From contig CAZSPC010000002.1 of the NCBI GenBank assembly GCA_964608745.1, positions 1-54,454 of the forward strand: a stretch of 54,454 nucleotides of DNA. Reading direction: 5' to 3'. Shown here piece after piece: positions 4,652 through 49,592 of the stretch. Numbering within the stretch: position 1 is the stretch's first letter; every line of letters starts with the position of its first letter. The stretch comes from an uncultured Candidatus Saccharibacteria bacterium. Its GTDB lineage: Bacteria; Patescibacteriota; Minisyncoccia; Phycocordibacterales; UBA12079. Under the pieces are notes generated by a model. It had not been told where the DNA came from. It worked only from the letters and a program-made list of their open reading frames with translations, and searched no databases. A program made the position numbers and the translations under genes.

Positions 4652-4690
4652 AAACGGCTCAATTGGTTGAGCCGTTTAAGCTTTTTGGGG
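4652..4690 (+). terminator. Rho-independent terminator, part of a duplicated intergenic module
   Basis: Stem aaacggctcaa/ttgagccgttt followed by aagcttttt. About 57 nt are repeated at 31624-31680 on the minus strand. Confidence 0.7.
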
Positions 4691-4776
4691 CTCTGTTGAG
4701 CTATACAAACGACTATATAAAAAAAACGAAAGAAAACCTACTGAAATGCGTAATAAGTAAGAGTATAATATTAAAA

Positions 4777-6139: not shown

Positions 6140-6184
6140 ATTATAAGTAGATTAAAAGAATAATACATTCAATCATTCAATTGA

Positions 6185-6673: not shown

Positions 6674-6761
6674 GTTTGAAAATCCCAATTATTTAAAAGG
6701 CTCACAAGGTGAGCCTTTTAATGTGTCTTGCTAAGTAGTTTTGTTTTGATATGATTCATTT

Positions 6762-7481
6762 ATGGATTTAAATGAATTAAAAAAAGAAATAAAAAAATTT
6801 GAAAATCTTGAACAGGCAAAAATTTCTCAAAAATTCTTTAAAACCAGAAAGGGAGAATATGGTGAGGGAGATAAGTTTTTGGGAATAAAAGCGCCAATTT
6901 TAAGAAAAATCGCCAAAAACTACACAAATTTAGGTCCCGGGGACCTAAATAAGCTGATGGAAAGTAGAATCCATGAACACCGTTTTATCGCCTTGGTTAT
7001 TTTAATAACAAGATTTAATAAAAGTGGGTCATCGGAAGGCCCACCAAAAGAGATTTTTGAATTTTATTTGGATAATTTGAAGGAGGGGAATATAAATAAT
7101 TGGGATTTAGTTGACATTTCAGCTCCGCATATTGTTGGGCAATACTTACTAAGGCAAGGCCTTAGTAAGAGGGAGGTTTTGTATGGCTTGGCCAAGTCAA
7201 AAAATCTTTGGGAAAGGAGGGTTTCAATTATTTCAACTTTTACATTTATTAGAGGAAATCAATTTGATGATACTTTAAAAATTTCTGAAATTCTTTTAGG
7301 TGATGAAAATGATTTAATTCATAAAGCCGTGGGCTGGATGTTGCGAGAGGTGGGCAAGAGAGACCAAAAAAAGTTGGAACAATTTCTTAAAAAACATAAT
7401 AAAAAAATCCCTCGGACAACTTTACGATACGCGATCGAAAAGTTTCCTGAGGGATTGAGGAAAAAATATTTGAAAATGTAA
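6762..7481 (+). CDS. DNA alkylation repair protein (AlkD-like HEAT-repeat family)
   Basis: Family-typical FFKTRKGEYGEGDKFLGIKAPILRKIAK, NNWDLVD and HKAVGWMLREVGKRD. Confidence 0.75.
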   Translation: MDLNELKKEIKKFENLEQAKISQKFFKTRKGEYGEGDKFLGIKAPILRKIAKNYTNLGPGDLNKLMESRIHEHRFIALVILITRFNKSGSSEGPPKEIFEFYLDNLKEGNINNWDLVDISAPHIVGQYLLRQGLSKREVLYGLAKSKNLWERRVSIISTFTFIRGNQFDDTLKISEILLGDENDLIHKAVGWMLREVGKRDQKKLEQFLKKHNKKIPRTTLRYAIEKFPEGLRKKYLKM

Positions 7482-7488
7482 TTAAATA

Positions 7489-7680
7489 TTAAGTATCTTC
7501 GTGCCTTACAGCATCACGGATACTTTTTTCGACAGGAAGGCTAGCCCCCCAGTCTTCTTTTGAAGTACATACTCCGGGCCCATTATTTCTTTTCATTCCT
7601 GGACACCTTCTTTTGTCAAACAATCCAAAACATTCGTTCTCTTGCCATTTTTTATTGCATTTTTTTTTAATATTTACCAT
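7489..7680 (-). CDS. Small Cys-containing hypothetical protein
   Basis: 63-aa ORF preceded by a strong SD (ggagaaaacctATG). Confidence 0.5.
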   Translation of the reverse strand: MVNIKKKCNKKWQENECFGLFDKRRCPGMKRNNGPGVCTSKEDWGASLPVEKSIRDAVRHEDT

Positions 7681-7748
7681 AGGTTTTCTCCTTTTGATTT
7701 TTTCTATTTTGTTATTTTATTCCGCTTGTTAATATATGTGAAATTCAA

Positions 7749-8321
7749 TTAAAAATCAAGTGATTTTTCAATTTCATCAGCAATTTTTTGATAACCCTGT
7801 GCGTTTGGATGAGCTCCGTCGTCTAAATCTCCAACATTTAAGACATCTTTTAAGGGGATATATTGTAGGTTATTTTCTTTGCAAAATTCTTTAATTATCT
7901 CATCATATTTTGCTAAATTCTTATTACAAAAATGTAGATAATGCCAAGTGGTTGTGATATCGTCGTTCATTCGCGGAAGACCAGTAAAAGTGATTTCTTT
8001 GGTATGTTGCTGTAAGATTTTAAGTATTTTTTCTAAGTTTTGTTTATAGTCGACTGGGGGAATAAGGGTTTTGTTTTTATCTGTGTTGTATTGGGTGTCA
8101 TTAGCACCAATAAAAATAATAGCGATGTCTGGTTTTTTTCTTTCAATATCGTCTTCTAATCTATTTAATAAATCTTGAGAGGTATCTCCGGGGATACCAA
8201 AATTCCAAAATTTAAGTTCTGGGTTTTGTAATTGGTTTTTTAGGCGAGTAACCCAACCTCCCTCGGTTATGTCGCCCATACCATAAACTAGGCTGTCGCC
8301 GTATACGCAGATGTTTTTCAT
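7749..8321 (-). CDS. SGNH/GDSL-family hydrolase
   Basis: Block I VYGDSLVYG, block III GANDT, block V DGAHPN. Confidence 0.85.
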   Translation of the reverse strand: MKNICVYGDSLVYGMGDITEGGWVTRLKNQLQNPELKFWNFGIPGDTSQDLLNRLEDDIERKKPDIAIIFIGANDTQYNTDKNKTLIPPVDYKQNLEKILKILQQHTKEITFTGLPRMNDDITTTWHYLHFCNKNLAKYDEIIKEFCKENNLQYIPLKDVLNVGDLDDGAHPNAQGYQKIADEIEKSLDF

Positions 8322-8471
8322 ACGAATATATTATATACTATCTCAATGAATCCTGTTAGAGATTATTATTTGATTTATGAGATAATATTCATAGACAAAA
8401 AACGGGATATTTTAGAAAATTAATTATATAAATACGTCCATCTTAAACTTAGACGGACTATCTCTAACGGG

Positions 8472-9041
8472 ATGAAAATCAAATCAGCAGAATTTGTCAA
8501 AGGAATAAAAGGTACAGATAAGGTTTTAAATGATAAGCGACAACATATCGCTTTTGTTGGGCGTTCTAATGTTGGCAAATCGTCTGTTATTAATTCTCTG
8601 GTTGGTAAAAAAGAATTAGTGAAATCAAGTTCTTTGCCAGGAAAAACTCGTGAGATAAATTTTTTTCTTATCAATAAGAAATTTTATTTTGTCGATTTGC
8701 CTGGATATGGATTTGCAAAAATAAAACAAAAGCAAAGAGAAAAATTAAGAAAACTTATTTTGTGGTATTTATTGGGTGATGATTTGGAGGAAATTGATAA
8801 AAAAATTGTTTTAATTATTGATTTTAAAGTTGGCCCATCGAAATTTGATCTAGAGATGCTACAATTGTTGCAAGAAAATAATTTAGATTTTATAATTATT
8901 GCTAATAAAATTGATAAGATTAGTAAGGGAAAAAGGTTGAGTCAGACAAAAAAGCTTGAGAGTAAGCTTGGAGAAGAAAATATTATTCTATTTTCAGCAA
9001 AAACAGGAGAAGGGAAAGAGAAATTATTAAAAATAATTTAA
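8472..9041 (+). CDS. engB: Ribosome-biogenesis GTPase EngB/YihA
   Basis: G1 GRSNVGKSS, G3 DLPGYG, G4 NKIDK, with typical length and order. Confidence 0.9.
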   Translation: MKIKSAEFVKGIKGTDKVLNDKRQHIAFVGRSNVGKSSVINSLVGKKELVKSSSLPGKTREINFFLINKKFYFVDLPGYGFAKIKQKQREKLRKLILWYLLGDDLEEIDKKIVLIIDFKVGPSKFDLEMLQLLQENNLDFIIIANKIDKISKGKRLSQTKKLESKLGEENIILFSAKTGEGKEKLLKII

Positions 9042-9175
9042 TTTTCAATTTTCAATTTACAAATTTTCAAACACTAACACTAGCTTCAATATTACAATGA
9101 ATTAATGTTTTAAACATTAAAAATTAATTTATTTAAAATTGTTTGAAAATTGAAAATTCGTAAATTGAAAATTCA
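9040..9175. repeat. Inverted pair of heptamer-periodic arrays
   Basis: Left arm is aattttc aattttc aatttac aaatttt. Right arm is gtttgaa aattgaa aattcgt aaattga aaattca. Confidence 0.7.
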
Positions 9176-9180
9176 TCAAT

Positions 9181-9942
9181 ATGTCTACATTTTTATACAT
9201 TCTTTCAGCTTCAATAATTGAGTCGCTCGTTGCCTTAATTGGCATCTTGTTTTTATTTTTAGGTTACGAGAGGTTCAAAAAGTATTTACCGTATTTAGTG
9301 AGTTTTTCTGTTGGAACTTTTTTGGCGGTAACTTTTTTTGAATTATTACCAGAGGCAAGCGAACACCTAGGGCACGAGTTAGCCCCTTTTTATATTTTGG
9401 GTGGTTTTTTGTTTTTCTTTTTACTTTCTCGTTTTTTGCGTTGGTACCATCATCACGAAGAAGGCTGTAGCGAACATGGTCAAATAAAAGTTGGTGGACA
9501 TTTAGTTTTGGTAGGTGATTTCGTTCACAATTTTATTGATGGGATTATTATTGCTCTTGCTTTTATGGTTAATATTCCGGTTGGTATAGCAACTACTGTT
9601 GCAGTTTTGTCACACGAATTTCCACAAGAAGCATCTGATTTTTTCATCCTGATTAATTCTGGTTTTTCTAAAAGTAAAGCATTAATGTTTAATTTACTTG
9701 TTTCGCTTTCGACTGTTTTGGGTGCGACAATTACATACTTTTTGGCATCAAAGATGGATAAAATTGTGGGCCCTGCATTGGGAATTGTAGCTGGAAACTT
9801 TCTTTATATCGCAATGTCTGATTTAGTCCCAGAGTTAAATCATGATCATTCTGGGACAAAAGATACAATCATTCAATTTATTTCTATTGTTTTGGGTATC
9901 TTGTTAATTTTCTTTGTAATGGAGTTTACACATAGTCATTAA
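9181..9942 (+). CDS. ZIP-family divalent metal transporter
   Basis: Multi-pass membrane protein with HEFPQEASDF, GNFLYIAMSDLVPE and a His-rich loop WYHHHEEG. Confidence 0.85.
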   Translation: MSTFLYILSASIIESLVALIGILFLFLGYERFKKYLPYLVSFSVGTFLAVTFFELLPEASEHLGHELAPFYILGGFLFFFLLSRFLRWYHHHEEGCSEHGQIKVGGHLVLVGDFVHNFIDGIIIALAFMVNIPVGIATTVAVLSHEFPQEASDFFILINSGFSKSKALMFNLLVSLSTVLGATITYFLASKMDKIVGPALGIVAGNFLYIAMSDLVPELNHDHSGTKDTIIQFISIVLGILLIFFVMEFTHSH

Positions 9943-17193: not shown

Positions 17194-17249
17194 TTGACAA
17201 AGGTATCGATAGAGTATCGATACCCTATCGATACCTTTTTTGGTATAAT
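17194..17249 (+). promoter_or_regulatory. Promoter region with a 34-nt palindromic operator-like element
   Basis: TTGACA at 17194-17199. Palindrome GGTATCGATAGAGTATCGATACCCTATCGATACC at 17202-17235. Extended -10 TGgTATAAT at 17241-17249, about 10 nt before the ATG. Confidence 0.6.
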
Positions 17250-39264: not shown

Positions 39265-40611
39265 ATGAAAACTTTAAAGATATTTATTTTCATATTTTCC
39301 TTGTTTATGGTAGGGGAAGTTTTTGCGTTGGACTTATTTCATACAGAGCAAGGTGTTTGGCGCGCAAAGGTTGTCGAAATTACAGAAACCAAACAAATAA
39401 ACATTCCAGGAACTGATGCAAAAACTGATGTGCAAACTCTAAACATTCGTTTATTAGAAGGTGAGAGAAAGGGGGAAATTTTAAGACTTGAAAATGATTA
39501 TATTCAATTAAAAGAGGGCGATAAATTTTATTTAAATTATCTTTTTACCGATCAAGGTGATGAAATTTTTTCTGTTTTGGAAGTTGATCGACGAGACAAG
39601 ATGTTTATTCTTTTTGCTTTATTTGTTGTTACAATTTTAATTTTTGGAGGTTGGCAAGGATTTCGCTCTTTGCTTTCTTTGGCGGGAAGTTTTTTGGTGA
39701 TTGGGTATATTTTGTTACCTCAAATAGTTGCCGGCATTTCTCCTGTTTTGATTAGTATTATAGTGGCCAGTGCTATTTTGTTTTTTGCAATATTTTTTAC
39801 TCACGGTTTTAATAAAAGGTCGCTAATTGCCTATGTAGGAACGATACTTTCGGTTATTTTGACCGGTGTGTTAGCTTATCTGTTTATTGATTTGACATCT
39901 CTTAGTGGTTTTACTTCTGATGAAAGCATTTATCTTGATTTTAATACTGGGGGAACGCTAGATTTTTCAGGATTACTTCTGGCTGCAATTATTATTGGTG
40001 CGTTGGGTGTGTTGGATGATATTGCTATAACTCAGGTTGCTGTTGTACGAGAATTATTTGGTAGTAACAATAAGATAAGTAGTCGGGAAGTTTACCACAA
40101 AGCAATGCGAGTTGGTAGGGAACATGTTGGTGCTTTGGTGAATACTTTGGTTTTGGCTTATACTGGAGCAGCACTACCTCTACTCTTACTTTTTTCAGTT
40201 TCAGACAGTGGTGTTTTATCAATAATCAATCGAGAGATTTTTGCTACTGAAATAGTTCGTACACTGGCTGGTAGTATTGGTTTAATTTTCGCTGTGCCGA
40301 TTACGACATTGTTGGCAGTTTTTGTTTTGAAAGAATGTCGAGAAAATTTAAAAGAAAAAGAAATTGGAAAAGTTTGTGGGTGTGTGAGTGAAAAATTAAA
40401 CAGAAAAGAAAAAGAAGCGAATATAAATGAACAAATTCTAAATTTACTGAAAGAAAAAGAAAAAATTACTAACAACGATATTGAAAAACTTCTTGGTGTT
40501 GCAGATAGTACGGCAACCAAATATCTTCAAAGATTGGAAGATAAAGGAAAAATTAAACAAATAGGCACAACAGGTCGTTCTGTATACTATTGTTTATCTA
40601 ATAAAGTGTAG
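39265..40611 (+). CDS. YibE/F-family membrane protein fused to a C-terminal winged-helix domain
   Basis: Signal/TM segment, a beta-rich N-domain, and the YibE/F core with GVLDDIAITQVAVVREL. The tail is ITNNDIEKLLGVADSTATKYLQRLEDKGKIKQIG. Confidence 0.7.
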   Translation: MKTLKIFIFIFSLFMVGEVFALDLFHTEQGVWRAKVVEITETKQINIPGTDAKTDVQTLNIRLLEGERKGEILRLENDYIQLKEGDKFYLNYLFTDQGDEIFSVLEVDRRDKMFILFALFVVTILIFGGWQGFRSLLSLAGSFLVIGYILLPQIVAGISPVLISIIVASAILFFAIFFTHGFNKRSLIAYVGTILSVILTGVLAYLFIDLTSLSGFTSDESIYLDFNTGGTLDFSGLLLAAIIIGALGVLDDIAITQVAVVRELFGSNNKISSREVYHKAMRVGREHVGALVNTLVLAYTGAALPLLLLFSVSDSGVLSIINREIFATEIVRTLAGSIGLIFAVPITTLLAVFVLKECRENLKEKEIGKVCGCVSEKLNRKEKEANINEQILNLLKEKEKITNNDIEKLLGVADSTATKYLQRLEDKGKIKQIGTTGRSVYYCLSNKV

Positions 40612-40788
40612 CTATTATTTTACGGCTTAACAAAGCCCCCACACCTTCCATATCATCGTCTTTCAGACAACGCACAGTTAATCAAATTTTTAATATTTAT
40701 ATTAATGATATGAAAGGTGTTGGGGTAAACCACAAAAAACGCTAAACGGCTACGATTTTAAATCGTAGCCGTTGGGGTTTTGAGTTGA

Positions 40789-40881
40789 TTACAACATTGT
40801 TCTCATAATTGTCTGGAATAAATCCCAGTCATTGATGCTTAGTATGTGATATTTTAAAAAAACTTTTTCTGTGTCACTCAT
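40789..40881 (-). CDS. 30-aa ORF (MSDTEKVFLKYHILSINDWDLFQTIMRTML)
   Basis: Strong SD aaaggaggttacaATG. A downstream stem aacggctacgattt/aaatcgtagccgtt is followed by a T-run. Confidence 0.4.
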   Translation of the reverse strand: MSDTEKVFLKYHILSINDWDLFQTIMRTML

Positions 40882-41427
40882 TGTAACCTCCTTTTAGTTG
40901 AATTAAATAACTCTGAGTTACAAAACTATTCATACTGCTTTAAATTTTTCTTCTGTTTTTTAAGGAAAAATTTAAAGTGTCACGAGAATTTTCTGAAGTT
41001 TTTAGAAACAAAGATGAAAATTTCAGGAAATTCGTAGTAGAAGAGAGTTTTGTAATTTAGAGTAAATAAAGAACAAAAAACCCCATCTCTTCGAGGGTTT
41101 ACAAAAAATATGTACTACTCTCATTCCTCGAAGAGTTATTAATACTATCTATAATTAAGCGACCTGGCTTATTCTCTTAATGAGACATTACAGTTGCGGG
41201 TCAGCCGAGGATTCTCACCTCGTTCGTTAACTATAAATATTTATGGATTTTTACTGAGTTTATTATAGCATAGAAAATAAATAAAACCCCAATACTCAGC
41301 CGTGTTGGGATTTAACTTATTCTAGCTCCGCCTGGTAGATGAAGTTAGAATCTATGTTATGTTGAATAGAGAATAAGAAAACCCGCTCAACGAGAACGGG
41401 AGTTCTTGTTGGCGGAAGTTGTAATAT

Positions 41428-41760
41428 CTAAAATTGACATCTTTTCATCAAAAGACTTAATTTATCTTCGTAGGGAGCAACAAAGTCCATCCATGAGATT
41501 TTATTTTCTAGTTTTCCTTTGAAGTTTGCAAAAACTTTTAACGAACCATTGTCCCAAGATTTTTCACAAAGAAGACAGTCGGGACATGCATATACGGCAG
41601 AACCATGATAAGTGTTGTCTTCTTCATGCACCCATAGAGAATTTTCGTGGTTACATTCTAATCGTAATTCCCAAATTCTCTTTTTTGCTTTTTTTGTTTC
41701 TGCTTCTGCTTTAAATATTTTTTCTCTTTCTGTTTGTATCTTTTTTAGTAAGTCTTTCAT
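41428..41760 (-). CDS. Hypothetical protein with Cys/His clusters
   Basis: 110-aa ORF containing ECNHEN...ACPDCLLCEK. Confidence 0.5.
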   Translation of the reverse strand: MKDLLKKIQTEREKIFKAEAETKKAKKRIWELRLECNHENSLWVHEEDNTYHGSAVYACPDCLLCEKSWDNGSLKVFANFKGKLENKISWMDFVAPYEDKLSLLMKRCQF

Positions 41761-41896
41761 TGATCCATCTCCATCTTTGTTTGAAAGTTAAGTATTTAAT
41801 TTCTACCCAAAATATACACAAACCAACTAACTTTGTAAAGCAAAAAACGCCCCATCCTCTCGGAGGTGTCTAAAATATGGCTCAACGAAGTCGTTT

Positions 41897-42145
41897 GCTC
41901 CGGCGGTAGGACTCCTCGTCCCGCAGTTACTAAGTAAATTTTTCGTGCTTCGCATTCAAAAATAGTAAGTACTGCTGGACGCGGCGCGGCGACAAGCCTA
42001 AATTTTTTCTCCGCTACGCTACGAAAAAATTTATCTTGTATCATACTGCTCGCTAAAGCAAGTGCCTTGCGCCGTTCGAGTCCTGCCCCGAAGGAAAACA
42101 ATAAAGTCCCAATATTTCATATTGGGACTTAATTGTTTTTGCTCC
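41897..42145 (-). repeat. Orphan copy of the tRNA-Asn-linked structured unit plus its hairpin
   Basis: It begins gctccggcggtaggactc, which matches the tRNA-Asn 3' end at 17/18 positions. It is collinear with 46498-46767, including the hairpin aaaacaataaagtcccaatat/atattgggacttaattgtttt. Confidence 0.8.
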
Positions 42146-42250
42146 CTATAGTAGACAAGTTCAGAACACTAAACTGGAAGAAAATTAAAAGAGAATTAGA
42201 GTTTTCGGGTATTTTTGAGTTACTTGCGAAAGAGGAGTTTCAGAACTAAT

Positions 42251-42790
42251 TTATAAAGTTTTTAAGTATTCTTCAAAAAATGCTTTATCTCTGATTATAT
42301 TAAATGCAGTGTTGTAAAATTCAACCTCTCCATTTTTAACTTTTTGCTCTTGTTCTTCTAAAATTTTTAGAATTTCATCTTTATCAAACCAAACTACATT
42401 TAGCTCGTTTTTCTTTTCGTCTTCTGTTCTCGTGTCTTCGTTTGCTTTTTTAATTGTTTTCACAAGAAAACAAACTGTTTCGTATTCTTTTTTGCTTCTG
42501 TTTCTGAATTCGTGAATTCTACCAACTTCTTTTATCACTTCAACTTCAAAATTAACTTCTTCATCACACTCTCTGATAACTTCTTTTTCTAAATCTTCGC
42601 TTTCTGCACCGCCTCCAGCAAGTAAATAGAAATTGTGAACAGGGTTAGTAACAAAACCAAATTTACCCTCGCCATTTTGAACGATTGCTTTCACAGTAAC
42701 TCTTTTTTCAAAACTCTCTGGAGTTTCAAATTCTGGATTTTTGAAGATATCTTTGTCTTCTAGTGTTGTTATATATTTCACAGAAAACAT
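42251..42790 (-). CDS. Nudix hydrolase
   Basis: Nudix box GGGAESEDLEKEVIRECDEEVNF. Confidence 0.85.
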   Translation of the reverse strand: MFSVKYITTLEDKDIFKNPEFETPESFEKRVTVKAIVQNGEGKFGFVTNPVHNFYLLAGGGAESEDLEKEVIRECDEEVNFEVEVIKEVGRIHEFRNRSKKEYETVCFLVKTIKKANEDTRTEDEKKNELNVVWFDKDEILKILEEQEQKVKNGEVEFYNTAFNIIRDKAFFEEYLKTL

Positions 42791-42847
42791 TGTAACAAAA
42801 AACAGGTGTTTAGGTAATATGTCTACCTAAACACCTGTTATAGAGAT

Positions 42848-43486
42848 TTATATTTCAAACTTAATCCTCGGTAATGGTTTATCTAAAATTATTTCGTCCT
42901 TAATTATATCCATTACAGAAACGTAACAATTCGGAGGGTTTGCTAAATAGCGAAAATCTTCATCGCTTATATTTAACAAAGATTTCGCTATAACTCTTAA
43001 AGCAAATCCGTGGGTAAAAATAATTACACACTCAGGATAGTTTGGTTCTTTTCCTTCGGATAGAGTTTTTTGAGCAAAGAGATGAATTTTTTGAACAAAC
43101 TCGGACGAGTTGTCTCCGTTAGGGAACTTGTAAAACAAAACACCTGCACGGTAACGCTCTTGCTCAATTTCTTTAAGGTTGTCCTTGTTGGTATCACCCC
43201 AGTTCAGGTTTCGGATAGACCTTTCATTTTGGATTTCAAACCTTATAGAGTTAAACAATGAGCAAAAAAGCTGTGTTGTTTGTAATACTCTGTAAGTCAA
43301 AGATGTAAAGACTTTTACATCTTCATAGTCCGAAATCAAAGGTTCTATTTTTTCGGCTAGTTCATAAACTTGCCTTTTGCCAAGTTTCGTTATTGGTACA
43401 GTCTCGTTTTTATACTTGTTTTTGATGTTTGGGTTGATATCCTCTTTAGATTGAGCGTGCCTAATTAAAATAATTCTTTTAAGCAT
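42848..43486 (-). CDS. Histidine phosphatase (PGAM-like) family protein
   Basis: ILIRHAQS (RHG-type motif) and IIFTHGFALRV. Confidence 0.8.
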   Translation of the reverse strand: MLKRIILIRHAQSKEDINPNIKNKYKNETVPITKLGKRQVYELAEKIEPLISDYEDVKVFTSLTYRVLQTTQLFCSLFNSIRFEIQNERSIRNLNWGDTNKDNLKEIEQERYRAGVLFYKFPNGDNSSEFVQKIHLFAQKTLSEGKEPNYPECVIIFTHGFALRVIAKSLLNISDEDFRYLANPPNCYVSVMDIIKDEIILDKPLPRIKFEI

Positions 43487-43496
43487 TTCTCTGCTC

Positions 43497-44510
43497 CTAC
43501 TTTTTATTACTTATGTAGTTGTGGACCGCATAAGTAAAGGTTTTCTCAAGGTTTGGTTTTTCAAATACTTTTTTCCAACAGTCCTTATCTTCTGTGAAGA
43601 AAAGGGATGATTTCTCTAGTGCGTATTGACCAAAGCTAACAAATTGAAATTCTAAAAGATAGAATTCGTTTTGTTTATTTGCGATGTCAAAAGACGCAAA
43701 AGGGACATTGAAGAATTTAAAAACCGCTTTAGCGTAATCTAGTAGTTCAGTTGGTGGCTCTTTTACGAACTCTAGCAAACCACTACCGCTGGCTCGGAAA
43801 TCATTATTTCTGTTTCGTCTTTTCAAGACATAATACTTGTTATCGTAAACTAGTACCTTGTAATCGAAAGACAGTCCAGAGATAAAGTTTTGAGTTATAA
43901 ATTTTTTTCTAAAGTTTGATATTGGCTTATATCCTTTACCACTTATCAAACCACCTAAAAATCTCCTAAGGTTGATGAGTGAAAAAGTGTAAGAAATGAG
44001 ACCTGCCGAAAAAGTAGATTTCTTTTTTGACTGGCTGAAAAATACACCCCTACTCCTTGAGCCAGCACTCTGTTTAAGAACTACAGGTTCATTTTCTGCT
44101 TGCTCTTTAAATTCTTCCAAAACCCCAAACTTTTTTGTTTGTATGTTTTGAATAGGGTTAAAGCTAGATATATCCCTAAGTATTTCCATAAACACCTTGT
44201 TGTGATGAGCTCTAAACCTGGAAAAGTCAGGGATAAGGATTGCTCCTGCTAGTTGTAAACCAAGAAGAATATCCTCTATATAGTCTTTATAACTTAACTC
44301 AGGGTCTTCTGATGATTGGTACAATACAAAAGAATTTTTGTATTTTGATGACATAAAATCAACTTCCGAAAATTTTTCTATAAAGACTACATATCCTAAA
44401 AACTCAAACAGACTTTTTATTGCTAAAAAGTCCATACTTCCCGCAACTTCTTTTGTTGAAGAATAAAAAGTATTCCTATAATCAATCAAAAGAAAAATTG
44501 TTTTCTTCAT
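43497..44510 (-). CDS. ATP-grasp ligase (RimK-like)
   Basis: VVLKQSAGSRSRGVF, DYKVLVYDNKYYVLKRRNRNNDFRASGSG and FDIANKQNEFYLLEFQ. Confidence 0.7.
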   Translation of the reverse strand: MKKTIFLLIDYRNTFYSSTKEVAGSMDFLAIKSLFEFLGYVVFIEKFSEVDFMSSKYKNSFVLYQSSEDPELSYKDYIEDILLGLQLAGAILIPDFSRFRAHHNKVFMEILRDISSFNPIQNIQTKKFGVLEEFKEQAENEPVVLKQSAGSRSRGVFFSQSKKKSTFSAGLISYTFSLINLRRFLGGLISGKGYKPISNFRKKFITQNFISGLSFDYKVLVYDNKYYVLKRRNRNNDFRASGSGLLEFVKEPPTELLDYAKAVFKFFNVPFASFDIANKQNEFYLLEFQFVSFGQYALEKSSLFFTEDKDCWKKVFEKPNLEKTFTYAVHNYISNKK

Positions 44511-44758
44511 CTAAAACCTCCATATATATAACTTATTGTAATGTTCTGTTCAATTTCCTGGCAAAAACATACCATACAGATAATACAGTAGTCAACGGTA
44601 TTTGTTTAAAATTGGAAGAAAATTAAGTCTGAATTGGAGTATAGTGGTATTTTAAAGACGTTGGAAAACCAGAGACTTCAGAACTTTTGTTAGTTCTTTT
44701 AATAAATTATATTATTGAGTTTATCTAAGGTTACCCCAAAGAGTAACCTTTTAGGTGG

Positions 44759-44890
44759 TTAGTAATAAATCTTACGAACCTCTCTAGTCGTAGTAGCGGG
44801 ATGTCTTTCAGCATACGCTTTAGTTACAATCCTACCAGTCCGACTATCACGATAAATAACTATCGTCCTAAATCGCTTAGTTTTAATCAT
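44759..44890 (-). CDS. 43-aa basic ORF (MIKTKRFRTIVIYRDSRTGRIVTKAYAERHPATTTREVRKIYY)
   Basis: Translated by hand from an ORF below the track cutoff. A hairpin aaggttac/gtaacctt follows it. No SD was seen. Confidence 0.35.
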   Translation of the reverse strand: MIKTKRFRTIVIYRDSRTGRIVTKAYAERHPATTTREVRKIYY

Positions 44891-45115
44891 AGCGTTTATG
44901 AATTAACTAATAATACCACTACTTTTTCGGTAGTGTGCTGAAGCTACAAAAGTAGGACACCGTTTCTCTTGAGATAACCTTAGATAAATTCAAAGAGCAT
45001 CTTTCTTATCTTTATATTGAATTATATTGTATTGTAAAGTAAAGTAAATAAGAACAAAAAGTTATCTACATCAAAAAATTGATATGTAAAGCATTGTCAA
45101 GTATAATTATTAACA

Positions 45116-45355
45116 ATGAATAAATATAAAATATGTTCATATCCGTTACAAGATGGTCGTTGGGGACCTGCTTTTAAAAAACCCGTTGTCTCAGATGGAA
45201 AATCTGCAACATTTTCAAGCCCTACTGAGTTTGGTATCTACTTTAAAACAAAAGAAGAGGCGGATGAGTATGTGATTTTTTATTTAAAAGAAAATGGAAT
45301 AAATGAAATTGATATTTCTGATGAAAAAGAAAATAACGGCGATTATGAATTATAA
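45116..45355 (+). CDS. Small hypothetical protein
   Basis: 79-aa ORF with a TATAAT-like box about 15 nt upstream. Confidence 0.45.
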   Translation: MNKYKICSYPLQDGRWGPAFKKPVVSDGKSATFSSPTEFGIYFKTKEEADEYVIFYLKENGINEIDISDEKENNGDYEL

Positions 45356-45362
45356 TAAAAAT

Positions 45363-45539
45363 ATGGAAAGAGAATTTTATACAGCTGAGGAATTGGCTGA
45401 AAAACTACGAGTAAACATTATGACGATTTATCGTTATATAAAGGCAGGAAAACTAAAAGCTTACAAATTGGGTAAGGAGTTTAGGATCGGTAAAAAAGAA
45501 TTTAATAGTTTTTTAAAAAAATCAAAAATTATTAATTAA
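45363..45539 (+). CDS. Excisionase-family HTH DNA-binding protein
   Basis: YTAEELAEKLRVNIMTIYRYIKAGKLKAYKLGKEFRI. Confidence 0.7.
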   Translation: MEREFYTAEELAEKLRVNIMTIYRYIKAGKLKAYKLGKEFRIGKKEFNSFLKKSKIIN

Positions 45540-45558
45540 TTAATTAATTAAAAATAAT

Positions 45559-46359
45559 ATGAAAAATTTTTTAGATACAAGAAACACAATAATACTAATA
45601 TTGGTTGTTGTTGTGGTAGTTCTTATCACTTCCTATTTGAAAAACAATACGAATAATAGTGATAATAGCCTTTCTGGTATAGAAAGTAATCTTGTTAAGC
45701 TTAATAAGGATATGGAATTTTATAAATACTTGAGTATTTATAAAAGTTTGTTAGATGACGAAGAAAGTAAGTTGGTTGATGAAAGGTCTTCAAAAATAAA
45801 TGAGGAGCTTGCAGATGAAGACTCTAAAATAGTAGAAGCACTGACTCTTTTTATTGTGAATGAAATTATGAAAGACGAGAATTCAAAAAAAATAATACTT
45901 GATTTAAAAGACAAAGTAGATGATTTGGTAAAAAAATCAGAGATTGACGAAAGTGTTTTATTTACCAAAAACACAGAGTGTGCAAAATTTTCTTCTGACA
46001 TAAAGGAAGAATTATCAAAAAAATATAAATCAACATCAACAGTTACAGAAACAGAGGAATTAAATTTTATTTTTTATAGTCCCGAATTAAATACCTGTCT
46101 TTACTCTACTAGTTATAATTACGATTATTCTAATTATTCCAATAGAGAAAACCCCTATTATTCAAAAGATAGTTATAGAGTTTACGAGGTATCTTCAAGT
46201 AACCCAATACAAAAATATCCAAGTTATTATTATAAATATCCTTATTTAAGTGAAGACGAAGCTGATAAGTCTGCTGAAAATGGCTTAATTGGATATAAGA
46301 AATTTATTCTTGAGAATTCTGGCTATAACGCTAAATTATTAAAAGACATAAATTATTAA
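45559..46359 (+). CDS. Membrane-anchored protein with an acidic coiled region and a Tyr-rich C-terminus
   Basis: TM helix ILILVVVVVVLITSYL. Function unknown. Confidence 0.55.
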   Translation: MKNFLDTRNTIILILVVVVVVLITSYLKNNTNNSDNSLSGIESNLVKLNKDMEFYKYLSIYKSLLDDEESKLVDERSSKINEELADEDSKIVEALTLFIVNEIMKDENSKKIILDLKDKVDDLVKKSEIDESVLFTKNTECAKFSSDIKEELSKKYKSTSTVTETEELNFIFYSPELNTCLYSTSYNYDYSNYSNRENPYYSKDSYRVYEVSSSNPIQKYPSYYYKYPYLSEDEADKSAENGLIGYKKFILENSGYNAKLLKDINY

Positions 46360-46368
46360 AAGTAATTT

Positions 46369-46455
46369 ATGAAAGCGGTAATCTTAGCTAGAGTATCAAC
46401 AGAAGGGCAAAGAGAGGCAGGAAACTCACTTCCTGCTCAGCCTGAACACAAATGA
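46369..46455 (+). pseudogene. 5' fragment of a serine recombinase gene
   Basis: MKAVILARVSTEGQREAGNSLPAQ matches the catalytic N-terminus (RVST..Q...SL..Q). The frame stops after 28 codons, where the tRNA-linked repeats begin. Confidence 0.7.
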
Positions 46456-46497
46456 GTTAAAAAATAAAGGTAAGTGTATCCTGCGGATTCTGTTGAA

Positions 46498-46984
46498 GTA
46501 GGACTCGTCCCGCAGTTACTAACTATTTTTTTCGTCCTACGGACTCAAAAATAGTAAGTACTGCTGGACGCGGCACGGCGACAAGTCTAAATTTGAAGTA
46601 AAGGAGTATCGATAGGGTATTGATACCCTATCGATACCCCTTTACTTTAAATTTATCTTGTATCATACTGCTCGCTAAAGCAAGTGCCTTGCGCCGTTCG
46701 AGTCCTGCCCCGAAGGAAAACAATAAAGCCCCAATATTTCATATTGGGACTTAATTGTTTTTGCTCCGGCGGCAGGACTCGGTCACGAGTTACTAATTAT
46801 TTTTTTCGTCCTATGGACTCAAAAATAATAAGTACTCTCGACCCCAGCTCGACTGTTTCTTTCACTTCGTTTCAGAAACATGCCTGCGCTTTTCGAGTCC
46901 TGACGCAAGGTGTGCAGACACCTTGCTCCGCTCGGATCCAAAACAACAAAACAGCCCTACAAAAAGTAGGATTGTTTTGTTGTT
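46498..46984 (-). repeat. tRNA-Asn-linked array of hairpins and structured units
   Basis: Read on the minus strand, the layout is hairpin (46984-46938), unit B2 (46935-46763), hairpin (46762-46717), unit B1 (46716-46498). B2 ends in 19 nt identical to the tRNA-Asn 3' end. Confidence 0.8.
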
Positions 46985-47060
46985 GGCTCCGGCGGCAGGA
47001 CTCGAACCTGCGACCCAGCGATTAACAGTCGCTTGCTCTACCAACTGAGCTACGCCGGAA
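46985..47060 (-). tRNA. tRNA-Asn (anticodon GUU), CCA encoded
   Basis: The reverse complement folds as TCCGGCG-TA-GCTC-AGTTGGTA-GAGC-A-AGCGA-CTGTTAA-TCGCT-GGGTC-GCAGG-TTCGAGT-CCTGC-CGCCGGA-G-CCA. Confidence 0.93.
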
Positions 47061-47266
47061 TGTTACAATATTCAATTTTAAATTTAATTCCATGCGTAGT
47101 GATGTTTTTCGCAAGCGACTGTAAAAGGATTTGCTCTTCCCTTTATCGTCCTGTCTCACTTCGTTCGACTTGGACGATTTCCTCACTTTGTTCGGAACCA
47201 CCTGAAAACCTTAAACGGTTTTCAGCCAACTGACCATACGCCGGAATGTTACAATATTCAATTTTC
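47061..47266 (-). repeat. Duplicated tRNA-Asn 5' end plus upstream flank, with about 146 nt between the copies
   Basis: ccaactgagctacgccggaatgttacaatattcaatttt (47042-47080) is repeated as ccaactgaccatacgccggaatgttacaatattcaatttt (47227-47266). Confidence 0.8.
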
Positions 47267-47372
47267 AAAATGAACTTCTATATCTTATCAAAAAAACAGA
47301 AAATGTGAAGAGTTTGGTTTTACTAATGTAGAGGTGGTATAATCTAATTATTAAAACTAATTCAGAACAATT

Positions 47373-48266
47373 ATGAAAAACACAATTATTTTAATCTTAC
47401 TAATTATCATCGGTTTTGGTGGGTATTATTTTTTAAAAAATTCATCGGAAAATCAAGAATCCCAAAATCAAATAAATACTGAAACAAATCAAAACTCACA
47501 GGCGACCACAACGGTTGAGGATAAAACAAAAACTATTATCGGAAAATCTGTTGGGGGCGAAGATATCGTTGCTTATCACTACGGAGAGGGGGAGACGGAA
47601 GTTTTATTTGTTGGAGGAATTCACGGAGGTTATGGCTGGAATACTGCTTTACTGGGATACGAAGCAATGGATTATCTAAAAGCTAATCCGGATATGATTG
47701 CAACGAGTACCAAAGTAACAATCATCCCGGTTCTAAATCCAGATGGTTTAGAAAAAGTAGTTGGTACAACAGAAAAATTTGACTCAACCACCGCACCGAC
47801 AAATACAGAAAAAATTACAGAAGGTCGGTTCAATGCAAGTGAGGTTGATTTGAATCGAAACTTTGATTGCGATTGGGCTTCAGAAGGTAAGTGGCAAAAC
47901 AAAACAGTTAGTGGAGGAACAGAGGTATTTTCAGAACCGGAAGCAAAAGCTATCAAAAATTATGTAGAAAAAAATAATCCAAGTGCAGTTGTGGTTTGGT
48001 ATAGTGCGGCGGGAGGAGTTTACTCATCAAGTTGTCACAATGGAATTTTGGAAGAAACAAAAGACCTAACTAATGCCTATGCTGATGCGTCTGGTTACAA
48101 AGGATATGATGAATTTGAGTCATATGAAGTAACAGGTGATTTAACTAATTGGTTGGCTAAAATAGATATTCCGGCAATTAGTGTACTTTTGAGTAATCAT
48201 GAAGATGTTGAGTGGGAGGAGAATAAAAAGGGTATTGAAGCAGTGCTAAATTACTTTGATAAATAA
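47373..48266 (+). CDS. M14-family carboxypeptidase-like protein, probably non-catalytic
   Basis: TM anchor and DLNRNFDCDW. Positions equivalent to the metal ligands of the paralog read HGGYGW and VWYS instead of HGGYEW and FWHS. Confidence 0.7.
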   Translation: MKNTIILILLIIIGFGGYYFLKNSSENQESQNQINTETNQNSQATTTVEDKTKTIIGKSVGGEDIVAYHYGEGETEVLFVGGIHGGYGWNTALLGYEAMDYLKANPDMIATSTKVTIIPVLNPDGLEKVVGTTEKFDSTTAPTNTEKITEGRFNASEVDLNRNFDCDWASEGKWQNKTVSGGTEVFSEPEAKAIKNYVEKNNPSAVVVWYSAAGGVYSSSCHNGILEETKDLTNAYADASGYKGYDEFESYEVTGDLTNWLAKIDIPAISVLLSNHEDVEWEENKKGIEAVLNYFDK

Positions 48267-48272
48267 TTCACC

Positions 48273-48391
48273 TTCGTCTTTGCGAGCGAAGCGTGGCAAT
48301 CCAGGCTTTTGCTTGCTTTGGCAAGCAGAATATTTAGGTTCGCCAAGGCGAACCAACGTCTGGATTGCTACGCTTCGCTCGCAAAGACGAA
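48273..48391. repeat. Composite GC-rich palindromic element
   Basis: The arms are ttcgtctttgcgagcgaagcgtggcaatccag and ctggattgctacgcttcgctcgcaaagacgaa. They enclose two small hairpins. Related half-sites lie at 12048-12078, 16676-16714 and 38441-38473. Confidence 0.85.
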
Positions 48392-48426
48392 CCTCCTCAG
48401 ACGGTTCGTCTTGAAGTTTAGTAAAA

Positions 48427-48681
48427 AATAAAAACCCCGTATAATCACAAAAAGTGATTATACGGGGGTGGGAACTGGTTCGAGAAGCATATCCCACAAT
48501 TTGTTTACTTCTCGAGAAGACCACATTTTTCGCCCTCACCCACGGGTCTCCATACGGGGAGGTAGCTATCCCTGTTTATCCTCATTGCGACCGGGAAACG
48601 TCATTGCAATAAGACCAAGCTGTTGGCGGATACTAACCGGTGCCCGCTTGGCGACACCAGTTTGCCGGACCATCAATTTCT
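48427..48681 (-). ncRNA. Stand-alone structured RNA candidate of about 255 nt, class not identified
   Basis: On the minus strand the promoter is TTGACA (48715-48710)-N16-TGcTATACT (48693-48688). The body is about 50% GC by eye with several hairpins. The terminator is ccccgtataatcac/gtgattatacgggg followed by a U-run. No credible ORF is present. Confidence 0.6.
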
Positions 48682-48737
48682 ACGAGAAGTATAGCATACC
48701 AAAATTATTTGTCAAGCACTTTTTTAAGTTTTAAACT

Positions 48738-49592
48738 ATGTCAAAAAATAAATTATTTATTTTAATTATTATTTTAGTTATTCTTACAGGAATAAGCTTT
48801 TTTGCATGGCAAAAATATTCTAATGAACCAGAAGAAATAATCGAGCCAACTTTTAAACAAGAAGTTATTGGAAAATCTGTTGAGAGTAGAAATATAGAGG
48901 CTTACACATATGGTAATGGCTCTGAACACCTACTCTTTGTCGGTGGAATTCATGGTGGTTATGAATGGAATTCTGTTGTACTGGCTTATCGGTTTGTGGA
49001 TTATTTTGATAAGTACCCCGAAAATATTCCTGAAAATTTAAAGATAACTATTATCCCAAATTTAAATCCTGATGGAGTTTACAAAGTAGTCGGTAAAGAA
49101 GGAAGATTTTCTGGGGAAGATATTTTACCGGATGTTGATCAAACACTTGGACGATTCAACGCAAATGATGTTGATTTGAATAGAAATTTTGATTGTAATT
49201 GGCAAGCAACAAGTACTTGGCGAAGTCAGCCGGTTAGTGCTGGCACAAAAGTTTTTTCAGAACCGGAAGCCCGAGCCATCCGAGATTTTGTGCTCAAAAA
49301 TAATCCAATAGCTGTTGTCTTTTGGCATAGTCAGTCAAACGCAGTGTATGCGTCTGAATGTGAGGGGGGAGTTCTTCCTAAAACACTTGATATTATGAAT
49401 GTATATTCAGATGCTTCGGGTTACCCAGCAATAGATTCATTTGATGCTTATAAAATAACAGGAGATGCAGAAGGTTGGTTGGCTTCAATTGGAATTCCCG
49501 CTATTACAGTCGAACTCAGTACTCACGAAACGATTGAATGGAATAAAAATTTAGCAGGAGTAAAAGCTTTATTAAAATATTATGATCAATAA
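48738..49592 (+). CDS. M14-family zinc carboxypeptidase (membrane anchored)
   Basis: GGIHGGYEWNS, DLNRNFDCNW, FSEPEARAI and FWHSQSN. It is a paralog of 47373-48266. Confidence 0.8.
   Translation: MSKNKLFILIIILVILTGISFFAWQKYSNEPEEIIEPTFKQEVIGKSVESRNIEAYTYGNGSEHLLFVGGIHGGYEWNSVVLAYRFVDYFDKYPENIPENLKITIIPNLNPDGVYKVVGKEGRFSGEDILPDVDQTLGRFNANDVDLNRNFDCNWQATSTWRSQPVSAGTKVFSEPEARAIRDFVLKNNPIAVVFWHSQSNAVYASECEGGVLPKTLDIMNVYSDASGYPAIDSFDAYKITGDAEGWLASIGIPAITVELSTHETIEWNKNLAGVKALLKYYDQ

What the first reader, a model, noticed from the sequence alone, without database searches (positions are those of the whole stretch)
40620..46984. Decayed integrative island at tRNA-Asn with a truncated serine recombinase
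The region between the YibE/F gene and tRNA-Asn is a patchwork. It contains copies of the tRNA-Asn 3' end in direct orientation at 41897-41914 (17/18) and 46763-46781 (19/19), and a weaker one at 41325-41344. It has an excisionase-type HTH gene at 45363-45539. A serine-recombinase gene is reduced to its first 28 codons (46369-46455) exactly where the repeat units begin. Several short direct repeats are present, for example 41074-41113 versus 41841-41881. There are orphan small ORFs with their own SD and terminators, and cargo genes on the opposite strand. This fits serial integration at the tRNA followed by erosion, and it is the most likely place in the window for accessory or conflict functions.
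Basis: partly seen in the sequence, partly recalled or inferred. Interest (0 to 1): 0.6.

Follow-up and report, generated by a model that had tools for sequence, protein, structure and literature searches.

The report
Decayed serine-recombinase island behind tRNA-Asn
This stretch holds the eroded remains of two mobile elements that a serine recombinase inserted one after the other next to the asparagine tRNA gene; the island itself is ordinary, but intact relatives show that the recombinase gene runs across its own insertion site, so insertion cuts off the enzyme's last 34 residues.

Summary
Bases 42146-46494 are a dead island made of two modules, of a family of large-serine-recombinase (LSR) elements that target the 3' end of tRNA-Asn in candidate-phyla-radiation (CPR) bacteria.

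- **What survives.** The first about 25 codons of the LSR, its conserved excisionase-type partner gene, two copies of the element's far end, and cargo genes (NUDIX, histidine phosphatase, ATP-grasp, orphans).
- **Relatives.** Two related genomes and more than 13 metagenome loci have the intact LSR, convergent with and overlapping tRNA-Asn. Their cargo includes Shedu and restriction-modification genes.

1. The "repeat units" are not integration scars. They belong to a genome-wide family of structured repeats that trail many tRNA genes. This scan had already noted the family, including in this window. Each unit ends in a copy of its own tRNA's 3' end.
2. The island sits in one of those copies, two units away from the real tRNA.
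3. The small frame at 42146-42249 encodes the LSR's true C-terminal tail. The attachment site attP lies inside the LSR gene, and integration swaps the last 34 residues for residues read from the antisense strand of the tRNA.

A 2021 review states that recombinases disrupting their own gene are known only in archaea. Interest is moderate.

The parts
46984..47059 (-). tRNA-Asn(GTT), intact. Its 3' end (complement TGGCTCC + GGCGGCAGGACTCGAACC) is the attB site of the recombinase family.
   Evidence: ARAGORN; Rfam 72.3 bits; junction comparison
46763..46983 (-). Unit C, a tRNA-trailing structured repeat. In tRNA sense it runs: terminator palindrome, inverted copy of the tRNA 3' end, hairpins, then an exact 18-19-nt direct copy of the tRNA 3' end (46763-46781). 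It is the tRNA's native neighbour and corresponds to the unit in G003.
46495..46762 (-). Unit B, a second trailing repeat. Its tRNA-proximal 119 nt are 99% identical to unit A. It carries an inserted 68-nt palindrome (46588-46655). Its distal tRNA-end copy is cut down to GAGTCCTAC (46495-46503) at junction J2.
46456..46494 (+). Eroded tRNA-proximal junction (J2). This is filler between the recombinase stub and unit B. The expected TGGCTCCGGCG is missing.
   Evidence: Comparison with 13 intact recombinase|tRNA junctions
46369..46455 (+). Stub of the large serine recombinase gene. About 25 codons are homologous (MKAV.L.RVSTE.Q.EAGNSLPAQ), then the frame diverges and stops. About 1.45 kb of the gene is deleted.
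45559..46359 (+). Orphan 266-aa protein with an N-terminal membrane anchor. It occupies the cargo slot between the HTH gene and the recombinase. G+C is 24-27%.
   Evidence: no family, no paralogue
45363..45539 (+). Excisionase-family HTH_17 gene, a conserved core partner of this recombinase family and a candidate recombination directionality factor.
   Evidence: 61-78% identical homologues upstream of the recombinase in 14 of 36 metagenome loci
45116..45355 (+). 79-aa gene just upstream of the HTH gene. The pair is conserved in locus L092.
44715..44993 (-). 43-aa basic ORF (44759-44890) bracketed by 25-nt inverted repeats.
   Evidence: pair I8; no family
44575..44691 (+). Second, decayed copy of the recombinase tail and the far (P') arm of attP (..NWKKIKSELEYSGIL.., with an internal stop). 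It marks the boundary between module E1 and module E2.
   Evidence: (family D6)
43497..44510 (-). Cargo: 337-aa RimK-like ATP-grasp protein. This call is a lead only.
   Evidence: Atlas features 0.98; weak glutathione synthetase hit; 82% identical in G003
42848..43486 (-). Cargo: histidine phosphatase (branch 1).
   Evidence: PF00300, 8e-18; 88% identical in G003
42251..42790 (-). Cargo: NUDIX hydrolase.
   Evidence: PF00293, 9e-8; phrog_1198; 87% identical in G003
42141..42249 (+). Distal junction J1. It comprises the core GCTCC (42141-45), the P' arm of attP (CTATAGTAGACAAGTTCAGAAC) and the intact 34-codon recombinase tail (PIVDKFRTLNWKKIKRELEFSGIFELLAKEEFQN, then stop).
41897..42145 (-). 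Unit A, a trailing repeat now separated from unit B by the island. It ends in a 17/18 copy of the tRNA 3' end (41897-41914).
41276..41760 (-). Older variable slot. It holds an orphan 110-aa CxxC protein (41428-41760) and a decayed tRNA-end copy with a terminator block (41276-41368). The block is conserved in G003 and G010. G003 has a different gene in the slot.
40789..41252 (-). AdoCbl riboswitch (41107-41252) followed only by a 30-aa ORF with a strong Shine-Dalgarno sequence and a terminator (40789-40881). Found in none of 40 relatives, so it is probably acquired DNA and not part of the recombinase island.

Best explanation
**What it is.** Bases 42146-46494 are the dead remnant of two tandemly accreted integrative elements of one family.

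**The intact element (shown in relatives).** It is about 6-9 kb long and ordered as follows:
- far (P') arm of attP with the recombinase tail;
- cargo;
- a conserved 374-aa protein that resembles rolling-circle replication initiators, by language-model features only;
- an excisionase-type HTH gene;
- more cargo;
- the large serine recombinase (LSR).

**How it integrates.** The LSR recombines attP with attB. attB is the T-rich end of the terminator behind tRNA-Asn, then the 7-nt core TGGCTCC (the complement of ..GGAGCCA, i.e. discriminator plus CCA), then the acceptor and T arm of the tRNA.
- Because the crossover lies at the tRNA's CCA end, the tRNA stays whole.
- attP lies inside the 3' end of the LSR gene. 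The free element encodes ...PNW-L-PLVDKFRT.NW..IK.EL.FSGIL...LQN. After integration the gene reads ...PNW-L-RRQDSNL... from the tRNA antisense strand, and the 34-codon tail is left at the element's far end.
- A second element integrating at the recombinase|tRNA junction gives a tandem array with an internal tail copy.

**What happened in this window.**
- The array landed in a replica of attB, not in the tRNA. The replica is the tRNA-end copy plus terminator carried by the trailing repeats, between units B and A.
- Module E1 later lost its HTH, replication and LSR genes.
- Module E2 lost about 1.45 kb of its LSR and 11 or more nt of its tRNA-side junction.

**Shown:** the homologies, junction sequences, frame continuity, array structure and independent decay in G003.

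**Inferred:** the exact crossover dinucleotide, the HTH protein as directionality factor, any function of the tail swap, and the order of events.
For: **LSR at tRNA-Asn**
- Intact LSRs lie convergent with and overlapping tRNA-Asn in G002 (L056 2080-3726) and G019 (L057). The window stub matches their N-termini at 73% amino-acid and 76-78% nucleotide identity.
- Of 36 metagenome loci, most match the full-length protein P0005 only to residue about 505. ARAGORN finds tRNA-Asn starting there in 13 loci, and four more show an intron-bearing tRNA-Asn.

**The tail**
- Tail stubs occur in 50 of 251 genomes of the order. Nearly all are preceded by a hairpin and (TG)GCTCC, and several genomes have arrays spaced 1-3 kb apart.
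- The tail is contiguous and in frame in full-length LSRs: P0005, P0006, L093, L106 and L100. P0005 and the G002 LSR are near-identical up to ..PNWL and differ after it.

**Junctions**
- attP, both junction types and attB share the core TGGCTCC. The two attP arms carry the symmetric motif GAACT[A/T]G.
- J1 in the window reads GGAGC+AAAAAC.., the sequence found at a unit boundary. G003's J1 reads GGAGCCAAC plus a C-type unit, the true tRNA end.

**Other support**
- The HTH partner is conserved in 14 loci.
- G003 shares 41894-44685 at 80% identity (flank 77%). It keeps the last ~100 residues of the LSR, whereas the window keeps the first ~25.
- Intact elements carry Shedu SduA_C, D12 and Eco57I/TaqI-type methylases and a type I S subunit.
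Against: - J2 is not a clean reciprocal of J1. The expected TGGCTCCGGCG is absent and the 39 nt after the stub cannot be aligned with confidence to LSR 3' ends, so a secondary deletion has to be assumed.
- No other locus examined has trailing units between the LSR and the tRNA. Use of a replica site therefore rests on this one case plus the G003 comparison.
- No activity, excision product or circular form was observed. The short contigs with a contiguous tail (L093, L106) show no terminal overlap and could be internal junctions of arrays.
- The replication-protein call rests on language-model features only, with no Pfam or PHROG hit.
- The structure model of the tail is uninformative, with pLDDT about 30.
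Confidence: 0.85

Rival explanations
1. The island integrated into the real tRNA-Asn, as in all other loci. Units C and B were then added later between the tRNA and the island by whatever process spreads the trailing repeats.
For: - Every intact relative has the recombinase flush against the tRNA.
- The trailing repeats look mobile: their cores are up to 90-98% identical between different tRNA loci.
- The island is old enough (80% identity to G003) for later insertions.
Against: - J1 carries the unit-boundary sequence GGAGC+AAAAACAATTAAG, not the true tRNA end GGAGCCAAC plus a C-type unit. G003's J1 does preserve the true tRNA end.
- The C-type unit is the tRNA's native neighbour in both genomes.
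Confidence: 0.18
2. All tRNA-end copies and repeat units are attachment-site scars of past integrations, and there is no separate repeat family.
For: Direct copies of a tRNA 3' end are what integrases leave behind. The copies here do bracket variable DNA.
Against: - The same roughly 200-nt structured unit follows at least 9 other tRNA genes without any island. Each unit is tailored to its own tRNA, with an inverted and a direct copy.
- The LSR core is only 7 nt at the CCA end, so this enzyme would not create 18-19-nt copies reaching the T loop.
Confidence: 0.05
3. The frame at 42146-42249 is not the recombinase's C-terminus. It is only the recombinase-binding arm of attP, or a separate small gene.
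For: - In genomes it is almost always a 25-60-aa stub.
- Its first ~23 nt are the P' arm and would be conserved as DNA.
Against: - Five full-length recombinases carry it contiguous and in frame.
- The frame through CTC-C is the same in all junctions.
- Conservation extends about 100 nt beyond the core to a shared ..LQN-stop end, well past the 40-50 bp that a serine-integrase site spans (abstract of PMC12286644, listed).
Confidence: 0.05
4. The region is a prophage remnant rather than a plasmid-like or island-type integrative element.
For: Large serine recombinases and excisionase-type genes are common in temperate phages. The NUDIX, histidine phosphatase and HTH genes hit PHROG families.
Against: - No capsid, portal, terminase or tail gene appears in the window island. 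In the intact relatives, no such family was hit among the proteins scanned; only part of each element was scanned, and several of those proteins stay unidentified.
- No relative was found in the viral contig collection.
- Intact elements are only 6-9 kb.
Confidence: 0.05

Closest known systems
Tycheposons and the tRNA-linked genomic islands of Prochlorococcus (bioRxiv 10.1101/2020.12.28.424599)
   Same: - Small cargo-carrying elements integrate next to tRNA genes.
- New arrivals push older ones further into the island.
- Fragmented integrases and partial tRNA copies remain.
   Different: - Almost all tycheposons use tyrosine recombinases (910 of 937), and their flanking repeats are partial tRNAs made by integration.
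- Here the enzyme is a large serine recombinase with a 7-nt core at the CCA end.
- The long tRNA-end copies belong to a separate repeat family.
SSV-type ('suicidal') archaeal tyrosine integrases (review PMC8371274)
   Same: The recombination site lies inside the recombinase's own gene, so integration breaks the gene.
   Different: - Those are tyrosine recombinases of archaeal viruses and plasmids, and their gene is split into large N and C parts.
- Here a bacterial serine recombinase loses only its last 34 of about 540 residues and gains a tRNA-antisense tail.
- The review states that self-disrupting recombinases are known only in archaea.
Integration-dependent immunity of mycobacteriophages such as BPs and Brujita (from my own knowledge, not checked here)
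   Same: attP lies within the 3' part of a gene of the element, so integration changes the C-terminus of the product and thereby the element's state.
   Different: There the gene is the repressor, and the integrase is a tyrosine recombinase with a degradation tag. Here the affected gene is the serine recombinase itself, and no functional effect has been shown.
Accretion of integrative elements with defective partners (CIME/ICE accretion in Streptococcus thermophilus; from my own knowledge)
   Same: Tandem arrays form by integration at a hybrid att site. Members that have lost their recombinase persist and can move with a competent neighbour.
   Different: Those elements are conjugative and use a tyrosine recombinase. 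No conjugation genes are present here.
Pseudo-attB use by serine integrases, e.g. phiBT1 (PMC5937489, title and abstract only)
   Same: A serine integrase inserts at a look-alike of its normal attB.
   Different: Here the look-alike is a near-complete replica of attB (18 nt of the tRNA arm plus a terminator T-run). It is supplied in tandem by a repeat family that trails the tRNA.
tRNA-trailing structured repeats of CPR bacteria
   Same: Units A, B and C have the family's layout: a terminator palindrome, an inverted tRNA-end copy interrupted by a small hairpin, conserved hairpins, and a direct tRNA-end copy.
   Different: New here: one of these copies has served as the landing site of a recombinase-borne island. 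In addition, each copy plus the following terminator reproduces both arms of that recombinase's attB.

Membership tests
Large serine recombinase (LSR) integrative element | Resolvase-type catalytic domain with the N-terminal nucleophile serine | tested here: inconclusive
   Only about 25 codons remain in the window, including RVST..Q. They are 73-77% identical to full-length LSRs, but PF00239 cannot score so short a piece. The homologue P0005 has PF00239, PF07508 and PF13408.
Large serine recombinase (LSR) integrative element | Recombinase domain and zinc-ribbon/coiled-coil C-terminal domains present | tested here: not met
   They are deleted in the window, so the gene is dead. They are present in G002, G019 and the metagenome homologues.
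Large serine recombinase (LSR) integrative element | Element bounded by hybrid junctions that share a short core with attB and attP | tested here: met
   J1 at 42141-42170 has the core GCTCC plus a P' arm identical in pattern to more than 30 other loci. J2 is eroded, so only one clean junction survives.
Large serine recombinase (LSR) integrative element | Recombination activity and direction control by a directionality factor | not testable with these tools
   The HTH_17 partner gene is conserved, but its role is inferred.
tRNA-linked accretion islands (tycheposon-like) | Tandem modules next to a tRNA gene, with degraded recombinase genes and variable cargo among relatives | tested here: met
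   Two tail copies and one recombinase stub are present. The content differs in G002, G003, G005, G007, G010, G012 and G019.
Self-disrupting (SSV-type) integrases | attP inside the recombinase gene, so integration separates part of the coding sequence | tested here: met
   The frame runs ..W-L|P-L-V-D.. in free forms and ..W-L|R-R-Q-D.. in integrated forms.
Self-disrupting (SSV-type) integrases | Tyrosine recombinase of the SSV clade | tested here: not met
   The enzyme is a serine recombinase. It works like this family in one respect but is not a member.
tRNA-trailing structured repeat family (units A, B, C) | Lies just downstream of a tRNA, is bracketed by an inverted and a direct copy of that tRNA's 3' end, and has a conserved hairpin core shared between tRNA loci | tested here: met
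   Copies lie behind tRNA-Gln, Ser, Trp, Phe, Gly, Pro, Val and Arg and in contig C29. Each is tailored to its own tRNA; the inverted copies score 15/21.
Prophage | Virion structural or packaging genes | tested here: not met
   None was found among the island proteins or among the proteins scanned from intact relatives; part of each relative's element was not scanned. There were no viral-contig relatives.

The most novel reading that the evidence does not exclude
In this CPR element family the serine recombinase gene is built across its own attP site. Integration therefore acts as a switch: it replaces a conserved 34-residue tail and so changes the enzyme's activity, stability or direction. 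This would be a bacterial, serine-recombinase counterpart of the archaeal 'suicidal' integrases. Alongside this, the structured repeats that trail tRNA genes reproduce the whole attB site in tandem. They would then serve as spare landing pads or decoys that let islands accumulate and hop without touching the tRNA.
Probability: 0.3. Interest if true: 0.7.

Novelty: new variant of a known kind. Interest (0 to 1): 0.45.

Why it matters
**The island.** It is an ordinary decayed mobile-element remnant. It confirms that tRNA-Asn is a hot spot for accessory and defence genes in these tiny genomes.

**Wider points.**
1. This is a widespread family of small integrative elements carrying defence genes in CPR bacteria. 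Tail stubs occur in about one fifth of 251 genomes of the order.
2. Its large serine recombinase gene spans attP, so integration removes the enzyme's conserved C-terminal tail. A 2021 review describes self-disrupting recombinases as exclusive to archaea. The layout gives a simple, testable model for state-dependent control of a serine integrase.
3. It links two features noted separately before. The undescribed tRNA-trailing repeats offer near-complete replicas of the recombinase's target, and one replica was used here.

Serine integrases with short, defined sites are also of practical interest as genome-engineering tools.

Tried and rejected
- **Paralogues in the same genome.** None found for any island protein.
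- **YibE/F as a synteny anchor.** This failed: its core is missing from same-genus and same-family relatives, and only its C-terminal HTH domain recurs.
- **Defence-system models (PADLOC).** Only the HTH gene hit, matching MADS mad1. I read this as shared HTH fold, not as a MADS system.
- **337-aa cargo protein against solved structures.** No match.
- **Viral contigs.** No relative of the recombinase.
- **The look-up of encoding contigs.** The metagenome scan was used instead.
- **9-10-nt motif TTCTGTTGA(A).** It is shared between junction J2 and units in contigs C27 and C29 and looked like a footprint. It occurs about 30 times in the genome, so I dropped it as chance.
- **AlphaFold2 model of P0005 from a 24-sequence alignment.** The catalytic, recombinase and coiled-coil parts came out well, but residues 473-539 including the tail scored pLDDT 28-50. 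Nothing can be said about where the tail packs.
- **Second self-spanning recombinase.** I looked for a distal junction of the LSR next to tRNA-Ser on contig C8. No second copy of the tRNA end was found on that contig.
- **PHROG and Pfam on the conserved 374-aa core protein.** No hits. Only protein-language-model features point to filamentous-phage-type replication initiators.
- **Ideas for the repeat units.** I considered retron-like RNA, guide RNA of a TnpB-type nuclease, and tRNA-primed reverse transcription. The last is excluded: the inverted copy matches the genomic trailer rather than a CCA end where CCA is not encoded, as in tRNA-Pro. The other two were not tested.

Full report
**Setting.** The window is contig C2 of a 762-kb, 41-contig genome that is about 93% complete. 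Its small size and low G+C fit a CPR bacterium. tRNA-Asn(GTT) lies at 46984-47059 on the minus strand. The finding covers the 6.4 kb between a YibE/F gene (39265-40611) and this tRNA.

**The observation**
- The 18-nt 3' end of the tRNA recurs at 41897-41914 (one mismatch) and at 46763-46780 (exact). No match is expected by chance.
- The weak third copy at 41325-41344 is not significant alone.
- The HTH gene is a bona fide excisionase-family protein.
- The 28-codon frame at 46369-46455 is the N-terminus of a large serine recombinase.
- Cargo on the opposite strand is a NUDIX hydrolase, a histidine phosphatase and a 337-aa protein that language-model features place with RimK-like ATP-grasp enzymes.
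- G+C drops to 24-29% over 45250-46250.

**The repeat units are a separate family**
- A search of the whole genome with unit A found its hairpin core on 10 further contigs. Read in tRNA orientation, these copies sit directly behind tRNA-Gln, Ser, Trp, Phe, Gly, Pro, Val and Arg.
- Each unit runs, in tRNA sense:
  1. a terminator palindrome that extends into the acceptor strand;
  2. an inverted copy of that tRNA's own 3' end, interrupted by a small hairpin whose stem differs between copies under a CTGC or CTAC loop;
  3. conserved hairpins;
  4. a direct copy of the same tRNA's 3' end, from the T loop to the discriminator.
- The 17-19-nt tRNA-Asn copies are therefore parts of units A, B and C, not scars of this recombinase.
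- The scan had already described this family many times on other DNA and behind tRNA-Gln in this very window. I found it independently before looking those notes up.

**The recombinase family and its site**
- G002 (same genus) and G019 (another family) carry an intact 490-550-aa recombinase. It is convergent with tRNA-Asn, and its reading frame runs antisense into the tRNA.
- In G003 (same genus), window 41894-44685 is matched at 80% identity: unit, small frame, the three cargo genes, second small frame. G003 keeps the last ~100 residues of the recombinase, fused to foreign sequence and overlapping the tRNA. The two genomes thus lost different parts of the gene, so it was probably intact in their common ancestor.
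- The small frame at 42133-42249 has a decayed twin at 44575-44691.
- Similar frames occur in 50 of 251 genomes of the order. They are nearly always stubs of 25-60 residues preceded by a hairpin and (TG)GCTCC, and often form arrays 1-3 kb apart.
- A search among longer proteins found full-length recombinases that end in this peptide. P0005 is almost identical to the G002 enzyme up to ..PNW-L. It then continues PLVDKFRTANW..LQN, where G002 reads RRQDSNLRPSD from the tRNA antisense strand.
- In 36 metagenome loci the match to P0005 mostly stops at residue ~505, exactly at the tRNA-Asn 3' end. Tail copies lie 6-9 kb upstream in the same loci. Loci where ARAGORN saw no tRNA mostly hold a tRNA-Asn with a large insertion in the anticodon loop.
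- The junction sequences give the two sites:
  - attP = ..GAACTAGCTAGTACCCCTAAC | TGGCTCC | CTATAGTAGACAAGTTCAGAAC..
  - attB = terminator T-run | TGGCTCC | GGCGGCAGGACTCGAACC
- The shared 7-nt core is the complement of the tRNA's discriminator plus CCA. The two attP arms carry a symmetric GAACT[A/T]G motif, which puts the centre of symmetry in the TGG of the core.
- The recombinase gene therefore spans attP, and integration exchanges its last 34 residues. The review PMC8371274 says self-disrupting recombinases are known only from archaea. I found no description of a serine recombinase of this kind in three literature searches.

**Element anatomy**
- Intact members carry a conserved 374-aa protein, present in 12 loci. 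It has no Pfam or PHROG hit, and features point to filamentous-phage-type replication initiators.
- They also carry the HTH_17 gene, 61-78% identical to the window's in 14 loci.
- Their cargo varies: a Shedu nuclease domain, D12 and Eco57I/TaqI-type methylases, and a type I specificity subunit.
- The window has no copy of the 374-aa protein.

**Reading the window**
- J1 (42145|42146) is a clean chromosome|P' junction.
- J2 (46494|46495) joins a short filler after the recombinase stub to GTAGGACTC.., the inner part of a tRNA-end copy.
- Together the two junctions rebuild GCTCC-GGCG-GTAGGACTC. The pre-insertion state was therefore tRNA, unit C, unit B, unit A, and the island sits between B and A.
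- J2 lacks 11 expected bases, so it is eroded.
- The comparison with G003 decides between insertion at a replica and later addition of units. G003's J1 preserves the true tRNA end (GGAGCCAAC) followed by a C-type unit. The window's J1 has the unit-boundary sequence (GGAGCAAAAAC) followed by an A/B-type unit, and its C-type unit is still next to the tRNA.
- The island's divergence from G003 (80%) is like that of the flank (77%). A local hop of the whole two-module array while the enzyme still worked is the simplest account; independent acquisition is also possible.
- Each tRNA-end copy plus the following terminator reproduces both arms of attB.

**The rest of the finding region.** Bases 40620-42145 hold:
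- unit A;
- an orphan 110-aa gene in a slot where G003 has a different gene;
- an old tRNA-end copy with its terminator, conserved in G003 and G010;
- an AdoCbl riboswitch followed only by a 30-aa ORF, found in none of 40 relatives.

Relatives carry quite different genes behind tRNA-Asn. G010 has a large 443-aa ORF that looks like a radical SAM/SPASM enzyme (my reading of its CxxxC motif, not scanned), a methyltransferase-like ORF and a RAYT-like transposase, all read from the sequences. G012 has a C5 methylase and an ATPase. G005 has a run of small genes. The site is a hot spot.

**Verdict.** This is a real but dead integrative island of a known general kind. Its family shows an unusual recombinase-gene layout and a link to the tRNA-trailing repeats.

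**Limits.** No activity data are available. One junction is eroded. The structure model of the tail is uninformative. One genome (G265) is unpublished and contributes only to the tally and one example sequence.

Noticed in passing
window 40789-41252 (-): An AdoCbl riboswitch (62 bits, above Rfam's threshold) is followed only by its terminator, about 190 nt of spacer and a 30-aa ORF with a strong Shine-Dalgarno sequence and its own terminator. No such riboswitch was found in 40 relatives. It may be a remnant of an acquired B12-regulated cassette or a riboswitch-controlled micro-protein.
   Followed up: partly
window 47060-47268: Upstream of tRNA-Asn, a 186-nt module duplicates the promoter and the first ~20 nt of the tRNA (47051-47082 against 47237-47268, 97%). 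Its core (47133-47233) is 96% identical to G000 C10:26806-26906, which lies upstream of a tRNA-Thr(TGT) and there begins with that tRNA's 5' end. It looks like a 5'-side counterpart of the trailing repeats.
   Followed up: partly
window 46588-46655: A 68-nt near-perfect palindrome is inserted in unit B. It has copies at window 17202-17235 and on contigs C4 (46151-46203) and C1 (12275-12308). It is a small REP-like repeat family.
   Followed up: no
L056 (G002:C13) 3598-4258: The tRNA-Asn of a same-genus genome is split at the anticodon loop by an insert of about 580 nt that encodes an HNH-motif protein of 110 aa. Several metagenome loci (L092, L096, L103, L104) show a similar large insert. These are probably group I introns, and ARAGORN misses such tRNAs.
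   Followed up: partly
G000 contigs C5:44944-47004, C8:31663-33270, C17:1-1570: Three further full-length large serine recombinases of this genome lie convergent with tRNA genes (tRNA-Leu, tRNA-Ser, and a tRNA-like T-arm stretch at the contig end). Their frames read antisense through the tRNA. The layout seen at tRNA-Asn may be general for the lineage.
   Followed up: partly
window 44715-44993: A 43-aa very basic ORF is bracketed by 25-nt inverted repeats (88% complementary) inside module E2. No family match.
   Followed up: no
window 48240-48740: A G+C-rich (41-44%) non-coding stretch lies between two paralogous M14 carboxypeptidase genes. It includes a 50-nt inverted repeat (48273-48322 / 48342-48391, 86% complementary).
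   Followed up: no
window 39265-40611: The YibE/F membrane protein is fused to a C-terminal winged-helix domain. The YibE/F core is missing from same-genus and same-family relatives but present at 47-56% identity in other families of the order. The winged-helix domain alone recurs many times per genome.
   Followed up: no
L114 around 580-700: One metagenome member of the recombinase family abuts a different tRNA whose 3' end shares the GGAGCCA core. By my reading of the sequence it is tRNA-Gln-like; no tRNA caller confirmed this. It suggests occasional switching of target tRNA.
   Followed up: no
L055 (G010:C4) 4200-9300: Behind tRNA-Asn in another genus sits a different island: a radical-SAM-like gene, a methyltransferase-like gene and a RAYT-like Y1 transposase (identified by reading the sequences only). 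It is bounded by tRNA-Asn-end copies at about 4234-4441 and 9213-9304.
   Followed up: partly
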